A stretch of 64,000 bases of DNA from Theionarchaea archaeon (GTDB taxonomy: Archaea; Methanobacteriota_B; Thermococci; Methanofastidiosales; SZ-28-30): positions 32,001-96,000 of the forward strand of contig JACVGT010000008.1 of assembly GCA_018992685.1 (NCBI GenBank), given 5' to 3'. Both the position numbers and the translations under genes were made by a program. The notes beneath the pieces were generated by a model. It searched no databases and had not been told where the DNA came from. It saw only the letters and a list, made by a program, of their open reading frames with translations. Shown here piece after piece: positions 4,462 to 39,810 of this stretch (the first letter of the stretch is position 1; each line of letters opens with the position of its first letter).

Positions 4462-5744
4462 TGGTTCCTTCTTCTCGATGTGTAATCCTTTTTGCTCTGG
4501 GCTGTCTCGTGGCTGTACTAGGGAAGGCTCCATACTACAATGCTGTGGTCCTTGCCGTAATCATTACTGATTTTCTGATTTCATATAGACAGTCTTTCGT
4601 TCTAACGCGAGATTTTGACCCTGTCCTTTCCATTGGGGTGGAGAATCCAGTCTCCATAGGAGTGGAAAACAATTCACCAGCCCCCCTCCGTCTCCTCATA
4701 AAGGATGAGTACCCTACAGGATTTTCCAGCAGCTGTCCTGAACTCTCAACCACGATCCCTGCCTTTGAATCTGAGACTCTCAGGTATACGGTCACCCCCT
4801 ATAAACGAGGAGAATACCTGTTTGGAACCTGCTTTGTCCGGAGAAGAAGCAGGCTGGGACTGTGGCTTTTTGACGAGGCTGTTCCGATGAAAGAAGATGC
4901 CCGGGTCTATCCCAATGTCCAGATGGTAAGAAAGTATGATCTTCTGTCAAGAAAACAGATGTTGAACCTGGCCGGGATAAAGCCTTCCAGAATCTTTGGG
5001 CAGGGTACAGAATTTGAAATGCTCAGAGATTACCAGGTGGATGATGAGTACAGGGCGATAGACTGGAAGGCCACATCCAAGAAAGGAACACCTGTTTCCA
5101 GAGTGTACCAGGTGGAAAGAACTAAGAGAGTAGTGCTGATGCTGGACACGGGAAGAATCATGGGGGTCAATGTGGGGGATTTGACCAAACTGGAGCATGC
5201 TGTCAATTCTGCCCTGCTGGTCTCTTTTGTTGCCCTGCGACTGGGTGAACGGGTGGGGTTATGTACTTTCTCTTCAGAGATAAAAGAGTACATACCTCCG
5301 CAGGGAAGACAGATCCAGTTCCCAATCATCTTGAAAACACTATACAATGTTAAGGGTGATTCTTTTGAATCTGACTACAAGAAAGCCTTTGAGTTCGTGG
5401 CCTCTCAAAACAAGAAGAGGACCTTGGTGATTGTGTACACTGATTTGATTGAAAGCCATATTTCCAGAGGATTGATTCAGTACTCAGCAGCTCTTCAAAG
5501 AGCTCACCTTCCCATGGTGGTTGCAGTCAAGGATACAAACATAGCCCACATTGCCAATAGCATTCCCGGGTCGGAACGAGAACTGTACCAAAAGGCAGTG
5601 GCTCTGAGTCTGCTAAAAGAGAGGAAGAAGGCCATAGCCGAATTGACGAGAAGAGGAATGCGAGTGGTGGATGAACTCCCCGAGAATCTGACCATTTCCA
5701 CCTTAAACAAATACCTGGAGTTGAAACACACATACAGAATCTAA
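4461..5744 (+). CDS. DUF58 (vWA-like) MoxR partner protein
   Basis: GTEFEMLRDY..DDEYRAIDWKAT, LDTGRIM motifs; GTG start overlaps the moxR stop. Confidence 0.9.
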   Translation: MVPSSRCVILFALGCLVAVLGKAPYYNAVVLAVIITDFLISYRQSFVLTRDFDPVLSIGVENPVSIGVENNSPAPLRLLIKDEYPTGFSSSCPELSTTIPAFESETLRYTVTPYKRGEYLFGTCFVRRRSRLGLWLFDEAVPMKEDARVYPNVQMVRKYDLLSRKQMLNLAGIKPSRIFGQGTEFEMLRDYQVDDEYRAIDWKATSKKGTPVSRVYQVERTKRVVLMLDTGRIMGVNVGDLTKLEHAVNSALLVSFVALRLGERVGLCTFSSEIKEYIPPQGRQIQFPIILKTLYNVKGDSFESDYKKAFEFVASQNKKRTLVIVYTDLIESHISRGLIQYSAALQRAHLPMVVAVKDTNIAHIANSIPGSERELYQKAVALSLLKERKKAIAELTRRGMRVVDELPENLTISTLNKYLELKHTYRI

Positions 5745-31770: not shown

Positions 31771-32355
31771 TTACTCAAAGAACCTGTTCAACCGATAGTC
31801 CACCTGCAGTATCTCCAATTCTCTCTCCAGCAGAGAGAGCTGTTTCTTGTCCAGAACAGCGGGATTCAGAGGGATGATCAACGTTGCCCTGCTAAGGATG
31901 ATCCGGTCATTCAATGATTGCAGAAATTTCAGAGTGCTCTCAAACGAGTTCTGGAGGGCTATGTACTCTATTCCATCAAGCAGAATCACTGCTTTCTCAT
32001 TCTGAGAGACAAATTCTTGAACGAAATATTCCAGCTTTTCCAGATCAGAGGGATCAATACTGCCTTCTGTCTTCTCACGGCTCAACCACAAAAAGATGTC
32101 TTTATCCATCTTGTATTTCTGACGGATTTTATCGGGGAACGTACGTGTAATTATCATTCCCTTGGAGGACTGCTTTTCTCTTATCTTCTCGTAGGCTTCG
32201 AATCCCTTTTTTGTATCCTTTGTTTTCAGAATATAGGAAGCACCAAGATCATCAGTAAATCGGAGCGGTTCTCTCCTCCTCATGTGTTTCGCTACCCAAA
32301 AGGCTGCGATTCCCGCTGCGATAGCTATAACTGCAAGACCTACATAGGTTTTCAA
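31771..32355 (-). CDS. DUF835 domain protein with N-terminal TM
   Basis: GMIITR.FP, WLS, IDPSDL, ILLDGIEY..LQNSF, LLEREL. Confidence 0.88.
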   Translation of the reverse strand: MKTYVGLAVIAIAAGIAAFWVAKHMRRREPLRFTDDLGASYILKTKDTKKGFEAYEKIREKQSSKGMIITRTFPDKIRQKYKMDKDIFLWLSREKTEGSIDPSDLEKLEYFVQEFVSQNEKAVILLDGIEYIALQNSFESTLKFLQSLNDRIILSRATLIIPLNPAVLDKKQLSLLERELEILQVDYRLNRFFE

Positions 32356-36817: not shown

Positions 36818-38152
36818 TTATGGCGTGACTGGCTGTTCTGGCCACGGCTGTCCCCGTGTAGCGCACATCCAGGGATCGGGCATGCACACAGTCCCATAGT
36901 GCTGAAGCACTCTCGCTTTGCAGCCGCCTCTGCATTCCTGGACATGAGAACAGGTTCCGCAAGTCATGCTTTCTGTTGTACACTGCCTGAAAGGCTCGAA
37001 AATTGGACTGTTCATCCAAAGGTACTCCATTGATTCTTCTCTGAGGCTGCCTGCTGTATGCTCAGGACTGCTCAACACAGGACACAGCACCACATCCCCA
37101 CTCGCAGTCACCGTCACCATGGACGTCCCCACCCCGCAGAAAGAGTAGGGTGATTCCGTATTCTGCATTTCTGACGCGAATGTGAGCTCTAAACGTTGAG
37201 GAGTTTTCTCCTCAAAGGTCCGACACTGTTGTGATACCTCTTCACCCATTTCCAGAGGCGGAATGAGATGTTCGTGCTCTGTGCCTCTCCCTGCCCCCAT
37301 GAATCGATCGAAAATCATCTCGCGGACACCTAGATCCACCAGCATCTGGATGACGTTGGATAACTCTCCCACATTTTCTGTGTACACCACGGTATTGGAG
37401 CGGACCGGTATCCCATGGTTGACCAGCCGAGTGATACCTTCTACGGTCTTGTCAAAGGTATCCTTCCCCCTGATCTTCTGGTGGAGTTCTCTCGTACCGT
37501 CAAGACTTACCATGACTTTCTCAGGGTTCAAAGCCTCCAACTGGCACACCGTGTCCTCGGTCAGGAGGATACCATTGGTGAACAGGTTCACCCCAACAGT
37601 ATTATCCACGATATATTCCAGAAGATCGAAGATGTCGCTCCGCAGGAGGGGTTCTCCCCCGGTGACAGCAATGCTCACCACACCCAGAGAAGCCAGTGAG
37701 TCTATTGCAGACATCCAGTCTGCTGTATCCAATTCTTCCCCATGTGATGTACCTGCTTTCTTGTAGCAGTGAATACAGGTCAGGTTACACTTATTGGTTA
37801 CCTCAAGATATGCAATATCAATGGGCCACTCCATCTCACTGCTCTTCATGATGACGGGCACATGCACTGGCTGACTGGAACCGTCCAGAAAATGGAGGTC
37901 ACGCAGGAAATCAATGGACTTTGAAGCCTTGTTCCTCACTCCTCTCTCAGGTTCGCTGTACAGCCCGCACAGTTCCTGTACAAGATCATCAGCTGTCCTT
38001 GTGCCGTCGCATAATACCAGTAACTCCTTTAAATCCTCATTTGCTTTCCCCTGAATTCTCCTCTTCAAATCCTTTACTAGATATTTCCCCCCTTTTTGCT
38101 TCTTGATGACAAGAGAGCCCGAACTCACCAAATACTCTTTTTCATCAGTCAT
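36818..38152 (-). CDS. Radical SAM/SPASM peptide maturase with N-terminal PqqD-like RRE
   Basis: RRE-like LLVLCDGTRTADDLVQELCGLY; CNLTCIHC; TGGEPLL; SPASM FCG...GDVVLCP...CGTC-x5-C-RGGC...DPWMC; GGAGG SD; start overlaps the upstream stop. Confidence 0.92.
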   Translation of the reverse strand: MTDEKEYLVSSGSLVIKKQKGGKYLVKDLKRRIQGKANEDLKELLVLCDGTRTADDLVQELCGLYSEPERGVRNKASKSIDFLRDLHFLDGSSQPVHVPVIMKSSEMEWPIDIAYLEVTNKCNLTCIHCYKKAGTSHGEELDTADWMSAIDSLASLGVVSIAVTGGEPLLRSDIFDLLEYIVDNTVGVNLFTNGILLTEDTVCQLEALNPEKVMVSLDGTRELHQKIRGKDTFDKTVEGITRLVNHGIPVRSNTVVYTENVGELSNVIQMLVDLGVREMIFDRFMGAGRGTEHEHLIPPLEMGEEVSQQCRTFEEKTPQRLELTFASEMQNTESPYSFCGVGTSMVTVTASGDVVLCPVLSSPEHTAGSLREESMEYLWMNSPIFEPFRQCTTESMTCGTCSHVQECRGGCKARVLQHYGTVCMPDPWMCATRGQPWPEQPVTP

Positions 38153-39197
38153 ATCCATCCTCCCAGCTTGCTGCAGCCAGCATTTGAGACCACGGGATAG
38201 CCTCATACGGATATGATACCACCTGTTCATCAAAGACCTTCCTGCAGAGGGCAAGAAACCCACGGTGCTGAGGACTGCCGAAATATTCCTGGACCACATC
38301 CATCAACGACTTCTCCCTGATGTTCCCCATGTACAGACGGGGGTTGAGACAGCTGTCAACAGGCACCACATTCCCGTCAGGCAGGATGATGAGCTCCCGG
38401 GGATCATTTTCAGCATGTCTGTGGCATTCTGAGCCAAAGCATGCATATGCATTACAGGGGTGTTCAGTCAGGACCTTCTTGCTGTGGATTCCCATGTATA
38501 CGCTGGTACTGGCCAGGTACTGCCCGTACAGCCTCGTGGTGAATTCAGCCAGTTCATCAATTTCCTTTTCAGACAGACAGGAAGATGCAATTTCCCGGGC
38601 TCTTCCTCCCACGAAGAGGGGCTCCAGTTTCAGACTCTCTGCTCCCAGGTCAGAGGCTGTCTCGGCAATCCATTCTATATATGGAAAGCTCTTCTTCGTT
38701 ACCGTAAACTGGAGGGCAAAAGGGACATCTTTCTTCCTGAGAGCTTCAATACCCCTCATAGCACTTTGAAATGCACCCTTCATCCCCCTGAAGGTATCAT
38801 GGTACTCCTGAGGACCATCGACGCTGATGAGAACACACCTCACCAGGTCCCGCACTTTTTCTGCCAACTCCTCTGTGATGAGCGTCCCATTGGAAACGAA
38901 ATCGGGTGAGAACCCTTCCTCAACTGCTACTTCCAGGATACGGGTAAGGTCTGGATGCAGGGTAGGTTCTCCTCCTGAAAATGCTATTCGGGTGGTGTTC
39001 AGCTTCTTCATGTCCCTGACTATGGACAAGACCTCTTCTGCAGTGAACTGGTGCACGGGGACGTTCTGAGCATTGATGAAGCAGTGCTGACACGAGAGGT
39101 TACACCAGTCAGTGATATGAAAGAGAAACGTCACTTCCTCTTCAAAAAACCTCAGGGCATGCTGGTGCACACCCTGAGAATCAATCGGGGTTGTCAT
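38145..39197 (-). CDS. Radical SAM enzyme with atypical SPASM/twitch-like C-terminus
   Basis: CNLSCQHC, FSGGEP, SNG, ISVDGP..YHD.FRG; GGTGG SD right after the precursor stop. Confidence 0.9.
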   Translation of the reverse strand: MTTPIDSQGVHQHALRFFEEEVTFLFHITDWCNLSCQHCFINAQNVPVHQFTAEEVLSIVRDMKKLNTTRIAFSGGEPTLHPDLTRILEVAVEEGFSPDFVSNGTLITEELAEKVRDLVRCVLISVDGPQEYHDTFRGMKGAFQSAMRGIEALRKKDVPFALQFTVTKKSFPYIEWIAETASDLGAESLKLEPLFVGGRAREIASSCLSEKEIDELAEFTTRLYGQYLASTSVYMGIHSKKVLTEHPCNAYACFGSECHRHAENDPRELIILPDGNVVPVDSCLNPRLYMGNIREKSLMDVVQEYFGSPQHRGFLALCRKVFDEQVVSYPYEAIPWSQMLAAASWEDGYD

Positions 39198-39209
39198 GTA
39201 CAATCCACC

Positions 39210-39302
39210 TTAGTATGCAGGCAGCGAAGGCTGCGGCACGATCTTGGTCGCAACAGACTGTATCTTCAGTGCCATGAATTCAGGCATAAATACGTCTTTC
39301 AT
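39210..39302 (-). CDS. Putative RiPP precursor peptide 1 (30 aa) MKDVFMPEFMALKIQSVATKIVPQPSLPAY
   Basis: GAGGTGA SD, own TATA box, stop 12 nt before the rSAM ATG, paralog upstream. Confidence 0.85.
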   Translation of the reverse strand: MKDVFMPEFMALKIQSVATKIVPQPSLPAY

Positions 39303-39333
39303 GGTCTCACCTCGGTGAGGTATATTCTGAGAA

Positions 39334-39347
39334 CTTATAAATGTTTT
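39334..39347 (-). promoter_or_regulatory. BRE/TATA promoter of precursor 1-rSAM operon
   Basis: AAAACA-TTTATAAG on the minus strand. Confidence 0.7.
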
Positions 39348-39463
39348 GTAGATTGAACATATGTCAGAGATATGAGTAAAAAAAACACCTTCTCCACATG
39401 TCATACGGTCCAGAATAAAAACTCATGAGCAGGGAACAAAGATCGACATACATGCCCAACCCT

Positions 39464-39482
39464 CAGAAAAAAAAGAAAGAAA
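39464..39482 (-). terminator. Oligo-T terminator after precursor 2
   Basis: TTTCTTTCTTTTTTTTCTG on the minus strand about 30 nt after the stop. Confidence 0.55.
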
Positions 39483-39513
39483 TGGACTGCTACCCTGATC
39501 ACTGGAGAAGAAC

Positions 39514-39603
39514 TCACGGCACAATAATCGAAGGAATAGGCCATTGCTTGATAATGATAGCCTGTTCGTTGTCTACCAAGAACTCGGGTTGGAACTTCTT
39601 CAT
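39514..39603 (-). CDS. Putative RiPP precursor peptide 2 (29 aa) MKKFQPEFLVDNEQAIIIKQWPIPSIIVP
   Basis: Perfect GGAGGTGA SD (39610-39617), own TATA box, aligns with precursor 1; not in ORF track. Confidence 0.85.
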   Translation of the reverse strand: MKKFQPEFLVDNEQAIIIKQWPIPSIIVP

Positions 39604-39636
39604 TGAATCTCACCTCCCTCCTCTTTCTCACCCTGT

Positions 39637-39651
39637 CTTTATAAATGTTTC
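39637..39651 (-). promoter_or_regulatory. BRE/TATA promoter of precursor 2
   Basis: GAAACA-TTTATAAAG; 12 bp identical to the precursor 1 promoter. Confidence 0.7.
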
Positions 39652-39810
39652 TGCTTCTAATATACTTTTCATATTCTTGCGTAAAAAAGGTATCATTCTG
39701 GACAGGTGTAAATAATAGACTGGAGAATGGGTCAAACACGGTACTTACTGTCAATAAAAAGAGAGGGCAGAATACAAAAGGTTTATAAACCTCGTGGCGA
39801 ACATGTCTCC

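What the first reader, a model, noticed from the sequence alone, without database searches (positions are those of the whole stretch)
39210..39603. Hidden second precursor reveals a conserved leader (FxPEF) and core motif (Q-x4-K-x-x-P-x-P-S)
Seen: MKDVFMPEFMALKIQSVATKIVPQPSLPAY and MKK-FQPEFLVDNEQAIIIKQWPIPSIIVP align with one gap, sharing MK, F-x-PEF, Q, K and PxPS while other positions diverge, which suggests selection at the peptide level. Neither has Cys, which excludes sactipeptide and ranthipeptide thioethers. Core aromatics are not shared (C-terminal Tyr versus Trp), so a common aryl cyclophane is unlikely. Inference: FxPEF is the RRE recognition site and the shared chemistry targets Lys/Pro/Ser (for example epimerisation, ether or C-C crosslink, or cyclopropanation). 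The terminal Tyr of peptide 1 recalls the MftC substrate.
Basis: partly seen in the sequence, partly recalled or inferred. Interest (0 to 1): 0.85.

Follow-up and report, generated by a model that had tools for sequence, protein, structure and literature searches.

The report
Conserved archaeal radical-SAM precursor peptides
Two tiny genes in a marine-sediment archaeon encode related 30-residue peptides that are conserved in its relatives, sit in front of two radical-SAM enzymes, and are very probably the raw material of an undescribed, cysteine-free modified peptide.

Summary
Both small ORFs lie on the minus strand (39210-39302, 39514-39603) and align as described.

They are real genes. Orthologues exist in 3 of 133 genomes of the phylum (one Theionarchaea-like genus) and on one metagenome contig. 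Eleven more representatives turned up in a 1.84-billion-protein library. Synonymous sites are saturated while replacements are few, and 9 of 9 copies carry a TATA box and a GAGGTGA ribosome-binding site.

The module is precursor(s), then rSAM1, then rSAM2. rSAM1 has no RRE and probably one auxiliary cluster. rSAM2 has an N-terminal RRE and a full SPASM domain.

A co-fold puts peptide residues 5-11 (FxPEF) on the RRE: ipSAE 0.77 against a best control of 0.02.

The core motif needs revision. P23, P25, S26 and a further Pro are invariant in 20 of 20 peptides. Q15 is kept in 18 of 20 and K20 in 17 of 20. No Cys or aromatic residue is conserved.

No curated family cut-off is reached, so the MftC analogy fails. 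The closest architecture is thuricin CD (two peptides, two rSAMs).

A conserved hairpin plus U-tract follows the precursor gene, inside the start of rSAM1, and is a likely attenuator.

The chemistry is unknown. I read this as a new variant of the rSAM-RiPP kind.

The parts
39514..39603 (-). Distal precursor peptide gene (29 aa, MKKFQPEF...WPIPSIIVP), monocistronic
   Evidence: ORF. Orthologues in G001 and G002. Against the G001 orthologue there are 15.0 synonymous differences on 17.7 sites and 6.0 replacements on 69.3 sites.
39640..39650 (-). Promoter-like AAACATTTATA (TATA box) about 40 nt upstream of the distal ATG; GAGGTGA Shine-Dalgarno at 39607-39613
   Evidence: Read. TTTATA(A/T)A and GAGGTGA are present upstream of 9 of 9 family genes. 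That this is a promoter is inferred.
39467..39474 (-). T8 tract 39 nt after the distal stop codon: likely archaeal oligo-T terminator
   Evidence: A T-rich tract is also present in G001. No significant hairpin here (z -0.74). Function inferred.
39210..39302 (-). Proximal precursor peptide gene (30 aa, MKDVFMPEF...PQPSLPAY), 12 nt upstream of rSAM1
   Evidence: Orthologues. The single peptide of L059 sits in the same position.
39336..39346 (-). Promoter-like AAACATTTATA about 37 nt upstream of the proximal ATG; GAGGTGAGACC at 39303-39313
39144..39179 (-). 13-bp hairpin (39179->39150) plus U6 (39149->39144) inside codons 7-18 of rSAM1: attenuator or 3'-end element for the precursor transcript
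   Evidence: dG -21.9 kcal/mol, z -3.76, 0 of 200 shuffles fold as well. All 13 pairs are kept in 4 of 4 loci, with 3 one-sided changes in L059 although the encoded residues change. The same hairpin plus U-tract also follows the distal peptide of G002, where no rSAM gene follows (z -4.70).
38145..39197 (-). rSAM1: 350-aa radical SAM enzyme without an RRE; CX3CX2C (C32, C36, C39) and a Twitch-like C-terminal domain with C248, C253, C258 invariant and C318 nearly invariant
   Evidence: Pfam Radical_SAM 84.3 bits, SPASM 20.8 bits (below the 21.5 cut-off). Invariant columns in 35 homologues. Model pLDDT 89.5; best fold match SkfB 6efn, E 3.9e-14, TMq 0.66.
36818..38152 (-). rSAM2: 444-aa RRE-rSAM-SPASM enzyme; its start overlaps the end of rSAM1 by 8 nt (14 nt if the upstream ATG is used)
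   Evidence: Radical_SAM 93.5 bits, SPASM 29.9 bits. The profile aligns positions 21-437 to CteB 5wgg 14-441, RRE included. Weak PqqD hits in 3 of 3 orthologues. Invariant or nearly invariant C122/C126/C129 and C339/C357/C398/C401/C407/C411/C430.

Best explanation
The two ORFs are paralogous precursor peptides of an undescribed RiPP-type system. It is cysteine-free, depends on radical SAM enzymes, and is restricted to Theionarchaea-like archaea. The conserved module is one or more precursor genes followed by rSAM1 and rSAM2. The N-terminal MKxxFxPEF(L/V/M)(V/I/A) segment acts as a short leader: residues 5-11 pair as an antiparallel strand with beta-3 of the RRE fused to rSAM2. This feeds the C-terminal part into the cavity between the rSAM barrel and the SPASM domain. 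The modified part is the region from Q15 to the C-terminus. Its invariant signature is P-x-P-S-[LIM]-(xx)-P, preceded by a hydrophobic stretch and a basic residue at position 20 or 22. Ser26 is the only invariant residue with a functional side chain, so it is my first candidate for the radical target or crosslink partner, with K20/22 or Q/E15 as possible second partners. rSAM1 has an intact SAM-cluster motif, probably one auxiliary cluster and no RRE. It most likely works on the same peptide while rSAM2 holds it, possibly as a heterocomplex like TrnC-TrnD of thuricin CD. Each precursor gene has its own promoter and ribosome-binding site. A hairpin plus U-tract just after the proximal precursor, inside the 5' end of rSAM1, probably ends or stabilises most transcripts, so that precursor mRNA exceeds enzyme mRNA. 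Shown here: the genes exist, are conserved and under purifying selection, co-occur with the two enzymes, and fit the RRE in a model. Inferred: that they are modified, which residues are modified, the enzyme complex, the attenuation, and the export and leader removal (no protease or transporter is in the module).
For: Conservation and coding:
- Orthologous peptides lie directly upstream of rSAM1 in 4 of 4 loci (G000, G001, G002, L059).
- Of 36 peptide pairs, 20 have a computable omega, between 0.01 and 0.88. The other 16 have saturated dS with dN 0.09-0.52.
- 9 of 9 genes have TTTATA(A/T)A about 33-40 nt upstream and GAGGTGA at about -13 to -7.

Specificity:
- The peptide profile hits only genus g1: 3 of 133 genomes, 8 copies.
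- 11 further representatives have E 2e-12 to 8e-7 among 1.84 billion proteins.

Enzymes:
- rSAM1 has 35 close clusters (45-88% identity, E <= 7e-79), then a drop to 115 bits.
- rSAM2 has 38 close clusters (35-81% identity, E <= 1.3e-88), then a drop to 246 bits.
- 10 rSAM1 clusters share the exact longest-contig length with an rSAM2 cluster, down to the 46%/41%-identity pair P0156/P0033.
- The flanks differ between loci, so only peptide + rSAM1 + rSAM2 is conserved.

RRE:
- The profile aligns to CteB including its RRE.
- PqqD hits: E 1.2e-3, 0.03 and 1.7e-4.

Co-fold:
- Score 0.77 (runs 0.86, 0.77, 0.67); best of 3 controls 0.02.
- The mark was reached by 58 of 80 solved complexes and 2 of 110 mismatched pairs.
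- The runs agree in at least 48% of contacts, and the partner's pLDDT is at least 68.
- Least-error pairs are peptide 5-11 with enzyme 35-44 and 72-83, including the invariant N38.

Catalytic motifs are intact in both enzymes.

Architecture precedent: in thuricin CD, TrnC has 3 clusters and a canonical RRE, TrnD has 2 clusters, the two form a tight complex, and there are two precursors (PMC12093266, abstract and passages read).

Hairpin.
Against: - No modification, transcript or peptide has been observed.
- The co-fold used my own shallow alignments and carried ligands along, unlike its calibration. RRE-leader complexes of related enzymes are solved (CteB, SuiB entries listed), so the pass may reflect likeness rather than this pair's binding.
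- The 11 library peptides were found with a profile of the first 9, so their agreement with the motif is partly by construction.
- The three genomes are close kin and not independent.
- No protease, transporter or immunity gene is conserved next to the module.
- The PqqD hits are below Pfam's cut-off of 23.4 bits.
- The hairpin shows only one-sided changes and no compensatory double change. It lies in coding sequence in 4 of its 5 occurrences, and hairpin-dependent termination is not established for archaea (recalled knowledge).
- Contig co-occurrence of rSAM1 and rSAM2 beyond my 4 loci rests on equal contig lengths, not on seen DNA.
Confidence: 0.75

Rival explanations
1. The peptides are precursors of a peptide-derived redox cofactor, in the manner of PQQ or mycofactocin, rather than of a secreted natural product or signal.
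For: rSAM2's best curated-model hit is MftC (171.2 bits), and PqqE is also high (134.9 bits). The precursors are very short like PqqA and MftA (recalled). No exporter or protease is in the module. Some members end in Tyr.
Against: Both scores are below the cut-offs (265 and 381.35). No MftB/D/E/F-like or PqqB/C-like neighbour was found. The C-terminal residue and most core positions vary. One genome carries up to 4 divergent copies. That pattern fits diversifying products better than a single cofactor.
Confidence: 0.08
2. The small ORFs encode real small proteins that are not substrates of the neighbouring enzymes, for example regulatory upstream ORFs or membrane-active unmodified peptides. 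The rSAM pair then acts on something else.
For: Two orphan copies in G002 lie far from any rSAM gene. rSAM1's nearest curated models are heme-pathway enzymes (AhbD 126 bits).
Against: The orphans occur only in a genome that also has the full module. The peptide is adjacent to rSAM1 in 4 of 4 loci while the flanks change. The AhbD score is far below its cut-off of 500. The co-fold places the conserved N-terminal motif on the RRE (with the caveats given above). rSAM2 has the RRE-rSAM-SPASM build of peptide maturases.
Confidence: 0.1
3. Only rSAM2 modifies the peptide. rSAM1 is an accessory, non-catalytic partner (as the rSAM activity of TrnD is dispensable for thuricin CD), or it modifies a different substrate.
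For: rSAM1 has no RRE. In thuricin CD only TrnC's radical chemistry is strictly essential (PMC12093266, abstract).
Against: rSAM1 keeps an invariant CX3CX2C, the GGE motif and the auxiliary-cluster cysteines over 35 homologues, which argues for retained catalysis. It is the gene directly coupled to the precursor.
Confidence: 0.2
4. The ORFs are chance open frames and not genes.
For: They are 29-30 codons long, and no RNA evidence could be obtained.
Against:: the motif is unique in the genome, profile E-values reach 1e-19, synonymous sites are saturated with few replacements, and promoter and SD are conserved in 9 of 9 copies.
Confidence: 0.01

Closest known systems
Thuricin CD system (TrnA/TrnB precursors with the rSAM pair TrnC/TrnD; PMC12093266)
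   Same: Two paralogous short precursors sit next to two radical SAM enzymes. One enzyme has a canonical RRE and a full set of clusters, the other has fewer auxiliary cysteines. This gives a precedent for a cooperating heterocomplex (one search compared).
   Different: Thuricin CD is a bacterial sactipeptide with Cys-to-C-alpha thioethers, and these peptides have no conserved Cys. rSAM1 lacks any RRE-like N-terminal domain. The precursor number varies from 1 to 4 per genome, so a two-component product is not implied. Complex formation was not tested.
RRE-fused rSAM-SPASM peptide maturases with solved structures (CteB 5wgg, SuiB 5v1t, PqqE 6c8v, SkfB 6efn)
   Same: rSAM2's profile aligns over its whole length to CteB, E 1.1e-42. 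rSAM1's best fold match is SkfB. The predicted strand pairing of the leader with RRE beta-3 matches this class.
   Different: No curated family threshold is reached. The substrates lack the Cys (CteB, SkfB), the Lys-Trp pair (SuiB) and the Glu/Tyr pair (PqqE) that these enzymes use (substrate residues recalled from knowledge).
Mycofactocin maturase MftC with MftA
   Same: It is the best-scoring curated model for rSAM2. The window's proximal peptide ends in Tyr.
   Different: The score is 171.2 bits against a cut-off of 265. The RRE is fused rather than a separate MftB. The terminal Tyr is not conserved. No other mft genes are nearby.

Membership tests
RRE-dependent radical SAM/SPASM RiPP systems (general kind) | A short precursor gene lies adjacent to the maturase and is conserved with it | tested here: met
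   4 of 4 loci
RRE-dependent radical SAM/SPASM RiPP systems (general kind) | The maturase has CX3CX2C, an RRE (PqqD-like) domain and SPASM cysteines | tested here: met
   rSAM2. The PqqD hits are weak and sub-threshold.
RRE-dependent radical SAM/SPASM RiPP systems (general kind) | The leader motif binds the RRE | tested here: inconclusive
   Model only: ipSAE 0.77 against a best control of 0.02. The mark was reached by 58/80 solved and 2/110 mismatched pairs. The result may rest on likeness to solved complexes.
RRE-dependent radical SAM/SPASM RiPP systems (general kind) | The peptide is post-translationally modified | not testable with these tools
   Needs expression and mass spectrometry
Mycofactocin (MftA/MftC) | MftC equivalog model TIGR03962 at or above 265 bits | tested here: not met
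   171.2 bits
Mycofactocin (MftA/MftC) | Conserved C-terminal Val-Tyr in the precursor (recalled feature) | tested here: not met
   The C-terminus varies: AY, VP, PK, KW, PF and others. Where Tyr is last, A, M or P precedes it.
Sactipeptides / ranthipeptides (including thuricin CD) | Conserved Cys donors in the core | tested here: not met
   Cys occurs in 4 of 20 peptides, at position 3 or 17, and is never conserved
Thuricin-CD-like two-rSAM architecture | Two rSAM enzymes with unequal cluster complements next to the precursors | tested here: met
   rSAM2 has 3+7 conserved Cys and rSAM1 has 3+4. By sequence only.
Thuricin-CD-like two-rSAM architecture | The two enzymes form a complex | not tested
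Aryl cyclophane RiPPs (streptide, darobactin, triceptides) | A conserved aromatic residue in the core motif (recalled feature) | tested here: not met
   2 of 20 peptides have no aromatic residue after position 14. In the others its position varies.
PQQ (PqqA/PqqE) | PqqE model TIGR02109 at or above 381.35 bits | tested here: not met
   rSAM2 134.9 bits, rSAM1 71.9 bits
Anaerobic sulfatase maturase (Ser/Cys to formylglycine) | Model TIGR03942 at or above 349.45 bits | tested here: not met
   rSAM1 73.2 bits. The chemistry on the invariant Ser cannot be excluded.
Peptide epimerases (YydG/EpeE type) | L-to-D epimerisation of aliphatic residues | not testable with these tools
   Only fold likeness: EpeE entries at TMq 0.54-0.55 for rSAM1, below SkfB

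The most novel reading that the evidence does not exclude
This is an archaea-specific RiPP class with a new radical-SAM chemistry. An RRE-SPASM enzyme and an RRE-less single-auxiliary-cluster enzyme work as a heteromeric pair. They act on a cysteine-free, proline-rich core (invariant P-x-P-S-[LIM]-..-P), for example by crosslinking or oxidising the invariant Ser with the basic residue at position 20/22 or with Gln/Glu15. Precursor supply is set by a hairpin/U-tract attenuator embedded in the first enzyme gene. If the leader is cut before Q15, the product may carry an N-terminal pyroglutamate. One orphan copy sits next to a glutamine cyclotransferase that, within the phylum, is found only in this genus.
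Probability: 0.3. Interest if true: 0.8.

Novelty: new variant of a known kind. Interest (0 to 1): 0.6.

Why it matters
Hardly any radical-SAM-modified peptides from archaea have been characterised. The searches I ran found no paper on such a system in Theionarchaea and none describing this peptide family.

The system is compact: one or two 30-residue peptides and two enzymes. That makes it directly testable by co-expression.

The substrate lacks the Cys and the fixed aromatic residues used by nearly all known rSAM crosslinking chemistries. A positive result would therefore probably reveal a new modification on Ser, Pro, Lys or Gln, or a mass-silent epimerisation.

It would also give a second case, after thuricin CD, of two rSAM enzymes sharing one RRE-held substrate. 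It may also provide an example of a structured attenuator between precursor and enzyme genes in an archaeon.

Tried and rejected
- Expression: the look-up of sequencing runs listed no RNA holder. All 13 holders were DNA runs of marine or other sediment, so nothing can be said about transcription.
- Read laying laid only DNA contigs. A related, abundant strain carries many substitutions over the proximal gene, and about 204 other letters replace the 207-nt spacer between the two genes. This added no new peptide type.
- Rfam scan of 38900-39800 at E <= 1: no match.
- The sigma-70 promoter scan is irrelevant for an archaeon and was not above shuffles.
- ESM Atlas for rSAM1 returned only generic radical SAM clusters.
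- The G001 rSAM2 'split' is a scaffold gap of N with duplicated flanks, not a frameshift.
- The long N-termini of P0128, P0129 and P0132 are not peptide-enzyme fusions. They are other-frame extensions over the peptide gene.
- Glutamine cyclotransferase as part of the system: PF05096 is present in only 2 of 133 genomes (G001, G002) and was not found in G000 (91% complete). The adjacency to a peptide copy is a single case, so I keep it as a lead only.
- Literature: five searches. I saw only the listings, apart from passages of PMC13692751 (about Cys-rich proteins, not relevant) and the abstract and passages of PMC12093266. Supplements were not consulted.
- I could not read which core residue lies next to SAM in the co-fold. 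The tool gives only interface residue lists.
Full report
**1. Observation**

The window is G000:C9:32001-96000. On the minus strand lie two small ORFs:
- proximal, 39210-39302: MKDVFMPEFMALKIQSVATKIVPQPSLPAY (30 aa);
- distal, 39514-39603: MKKFQPEFLVDNEQAIIIKQWPIPSIIVP (29 aa).

A six-frame scan of the whole 3.03-Mb assembly found 23 short frames with F.PEF, and only these two also have P.PS.

**2. Surroundings**

The proximal ORF stops 12 nt before rSAM1 (38145-39197, 350 aa). The end of rSAM1 overlaps the start of rSAM2 (36818-38152, 444 aa).

| | rSAM1 | rSAM2 |
|---|---|---|
| Pfam Radical_SAM | 84.3 bits | 93.5 bits |
| Pfam SPASM (cut-off 21.5) | 20.8 bits | 29.9 bits |
| N-terminal extension | none | about 110 residues |
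| Best curated NCBIfam model | AhbD, 126 bits (cut-off 500) | MftC, 171.2 bits (cut-off 265) |

No curated NCBIfam model reaches its cut-off for either enzyme. For rSAM2, PqqE scores 134.9 bits against a cut-off of 381.35. The two peptides match no NCBIfam model at E <= 0.1.

The flanking genes are housekeeping: Sec61-beta, glycine dehydrogenase subunits, and the alpha subunit of ADP-forming acetyl-CoA synthetase.

**3. Organism and distribution**

Orthologous contigs carry the titles 'Theionarchaea archaeon' and 'uncultured Thermococci archaeon'.
- Among 41 relatives, rSAM1 has orthologues only in the two other genomes of the same genus: G001 at 84% and G002 at 71% identity. All other matches are at most 38%.
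- The scan of all species-representative genomes gave the same two, with the other 36 of 38 loci at 36% identity or less.
- The metagenome scan added one ortholog, L059 at 70% (1 of 4 loci returned).
- In the 5.8-billion-protein collection rSAM1 has 35 close clusters (45-88% identity, E <= 7.2e-79), then a gap down to 115 bits.
- rSAM2 has 38 close clusters (35-81% identity, E <= 1.3e-88), then 246 bits.
- The source names that exist read Theionarchaea, Methanofastidiosia or Methanobacteriota MAGs; one reads 'bacterium'.
- Ten rSAM1 clusters have exactly the same longest-contig length as an rSAM2 cluster: 6119, 8424, 10393, 8116, 23875, 47969, 2834, 31003, 63618 and 22225. I read this as the two genes lying on the same contig, but I did not see that DNA.

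**4. The peptides are conserved genes**
- G001 and G002 each have both peptides in the same order upstream of rSAM1.
- L059 has one, MKCVFTPEFLIEQRQATVMKIGPLPSIPPK, in another genomic context with RNase HII upstream and an NB-ARC/TPR gene downstream.
- A profile of the 7 peptides searched over all 133 genomes of the class found 8 places at E 6.4e-19 to 1.0e-15, all in G000 (2), G001 (2) and G002 (4). The next hit had E 0.033. The class is also the whole phylum in this collection. A wider profile gave the same 3 of 133 genomes. These three genomes are kin and not independent.
- The two extra G002 copies are orphans. One lies upstream of an M28/DUF4910 peptidase gene. The other lies downstream of a glutamine cyclotransferase gene (PF05096, 329.8 bits). 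They share about 175 nt at 90% identity.
- Codon analysis of the 9 genes shows purifying selection. For G000-distal against G001-distal there are 15.0 synonymous differences on 17.7 sites and 6.0 replacements on 69.3 sites. Of 36 pairs, 20 have omega between 0.01 and 0.88, and 16 have saturated dS with dN 0.09-0.52.
- All 9 genes have a TTTATA(A/T)A box about 33-40 nt upstream and GAGGTGA about 7-13 nt upstream of the ATG.
- A profile search of 1.84 billion representative proteins found 11 more members, E 2.0e-12 to 8.1e-7. Three of them are longer gene calls that merely end in the peptide.

**5. Revised motif**

This rests on 20 peptides (9 from loci and 11 from the library). The latter were found with a profile of the former, so their agreement with the motif is partly by construction.

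| Position | Conservation |
|---|---|
| K2, F5, P7, P23, P25, S26, and a Pro after [LIM]27 with an optional two-residue insert | 20/20 |
| M1 | 19/20 |
| E8 | 17/20 |
| F9 | 19/20 |
| Q15 | 18/20 (Glu in 2) |
| K20 | 17/20 (the other three have K or R at position 22) |

- Cys occurs in 4 of 20 peptides, at position 3 or 17, and is never conserved.
- Two of 20 have no aromatic residue after position 14, and elsewhere its place varies.
- The C-terminus varies: AY, VP, PK, KW, PF and others.

So FxPEF holds. The core motif is better written (Q/E)-(S/A)-x3-K-x2-P-x-P-S-[LIM]-(xx)-P.

**6. Enzymes**

rSAM2:
- Its profile (51 sequences) aligns over positions 21-437 to CteB (5wgg, residues 14-441, E 1.1e-42), including CteB's N-terminal RRE. 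It also matches SkfB and PqqE.
- PqqD (PF05402) gives weak, sub-threshold hits in 3 of 3 orthologues tested: E 1.2e-3, 0.03 and 1.7e-4.
- C122, C126, C129, the GG(E) motif and seven SPASM cysteines are invariant or nearly so.

rSAM1:
- It keeps C32, C36, C39 and GGE. In the C-terminal part it keeps C248, C253 and C258 (invariant) and C318 (at least 90%). C283 is not conserved.
- Its model (pLDDT 89.5, pTM 0.87) is closest to the Twitch-domain maturase SkfB (E 3.9e-14, TMq 0.66), followed by PqqE and SuiB.

By sequence, then, the pair is one enzyme with three clusters and an RRE, and one enzyme with probably two clusters and no RRE.

**7. Peptide on the RRE**

I co-folded full-length rSAM2 (alignment A4) with three 4Fe-4S clusters, SAM and the peptide (alignment A3, first row the proximal peptide).
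- Score 0.77 (runs 0.86, 0.77, 0.67); best of 3 controls 0.02.
- The mark was reached by 58 of 80 solved complexes and 2 of 110 mismatched pairs.
- The runs agree in at least 48% of contacts, and the partner's pLDDT is at least 68.
- The least-error pairs join peptide residues 5-11 to enzyme residues 35-44 and 72-83 in antiparallel register. They include N38, which is invariant in the 51-row alignment.
- The rest of the peptide touches residues around the SAM-cluster motif, the bridging region and the SPASM domain.

Caveats:
- My own alignments were used.
- Ligands rode along, unlike in the calibration.
- Similar RRE-leader complexes are solved, so the pass may show likeness only.

**8. An RNA element**

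A 13-bp hairpin (39179->39150) followed by U6 (39149->39144) lies inside codons 7-18 of rSAM1, about 30 nt after the proximal stop codon.
- dG is -21.9 kcal/mol, z is -3.76, and 0 of 200 shuffles fold as well.
- All 13 pairs are kept in 4 of 4 loci.
- In L059 three pairs change on one side (UG>UA, GU>AU, UA>UG) while the encoded residues change from VHQHA to MPLRT. The loop varies. There is no double compensatory change.
- The same hairpin plus U-tract follows the distal peptide of G002, where only a remnant of the rSAM1 5' end follows (12 bp, -21.6 kcal/mol, z -4.70).
- The distal genes of G000 and G001 have a T-run (T8 at 39474->39467) but no significant hairpin. The orphan copies have neither.

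I infer a terminator- or attenuator-like or 3'-end-stabilising element that makes precursor mRNA exceed enzyme mRNA. That archaeal termination needs only oligo-T is recalled knowledge, so the role of the stem is uncertain.

**9. Mechanism proposed**

Leader residues 5-11 bind the RRE of rSAM2. The core from about Q15 onward enters the active site. rSAM1 has no RRE and acts on the same held peptide, perhaps in a complex.

Thuricin CD is the precedent. [quoted passage not shown]

The chemistry is not known. The invariant Ser26 between prolines is my first candidate site, with the basic residue at 20/22 and Gln/Glu15 as possible partners. Mass-silent epimerisation of the aliphatic stretch is equally open. 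Leader removal and export are not encoded in the module.

**10. Comparison and novelty**

It works like an RRE-dependent rSAM-SPASM RiPP system, and its gene architecture resembles thuricin CD. It is not a member of the mycofactocin, PQQ, sacti/ranthipeptide, aryl-cyclophane or anSME families, because a defining feature failed for each (see the membership table).

Five literature searches returned nothing on this family or on rSAM peptides of Theionarchaea. Subscription journals and supplements were not covered.

I rate it a new variant of a known kind. It is real, conserved and compact, with an unusual Cys-free, Pro-rich substrate and unknown chemistry.

**11. What could not be done**
- No RNA data were found.
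- The rSAM1-rSAM2 complex was not modelled.

Noticed in passing
window 39144-39179 (minus); L003 201-237: A conserved 13-bp hairpin plus U-tract lies inside the first 20 codons of rSAM1. The same element follows the distal peptide of G002, where no rSAM gene follows. It is a likely attenuator or 3'-end element for precursor transcripts.
   Followed up: yes
L075 5688-5783 (G002:C35) and L076 247-342 (G002:C38): Two orphan copies of the precursor (MKRVFMPEFLVESEQAAVIKKWPIPSII..) share about 175 nt at 90% identity. One lies just upstream of an M28/DUF4910 peptidase gene. The other lies just downstream of a glutamine cyclotransferase gene (PF05096), which was found in only 2 of 133 genomes of the phylum, both in this genus. 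This is a possible hint at leader trimming and pyroglutamate at Q15, but it rests on single cases.
   Followed up: partly
whole genomes G000, G001, G002: The genus has 42-51 matches to a radical SAM query per genome, against 2-10 in the other 38 genomes searched. Several lie in tandem groups, for example G000:C3:57538-60915 and G000:C1:312762-315293. This suggests many more rSAM peptide systems.
   Followed up: no
proteins P0190, P0128, P0129, P0132: Public gene calls misread this locus. P0190 is a 138-aa call that merely ends in the proximal peptide. Three rSAM1 calls carry 35-40-aa N-terminal extensions, at least two of which look like another frame read across the peptide gene. The real precursors are therefore often unannotated.
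   Followed up: partly
L021 about 5340-5440 (G001): rSAM2 of G001 looks split into two ORFs. The break is a run of N with duplicated flanks, which is a scaffolding gap and not a frameshift.
   Followed up: yes
window 39392-39598: In DNA contigs of sediment runs X9, X10 and X12, a related and much more abundant strain has about 204 different letters in place of the 207-nt spacer between the two peptide genes. The genes and their ribosome-binding sites are kept.
   Followed up: partly
window 31771-32355 (minus): A DUF835 protein (126.6 bits) with a weak NACHT-like stretch lies a few kb from the locus. It has no evident link to the locus.
   Followed up: no
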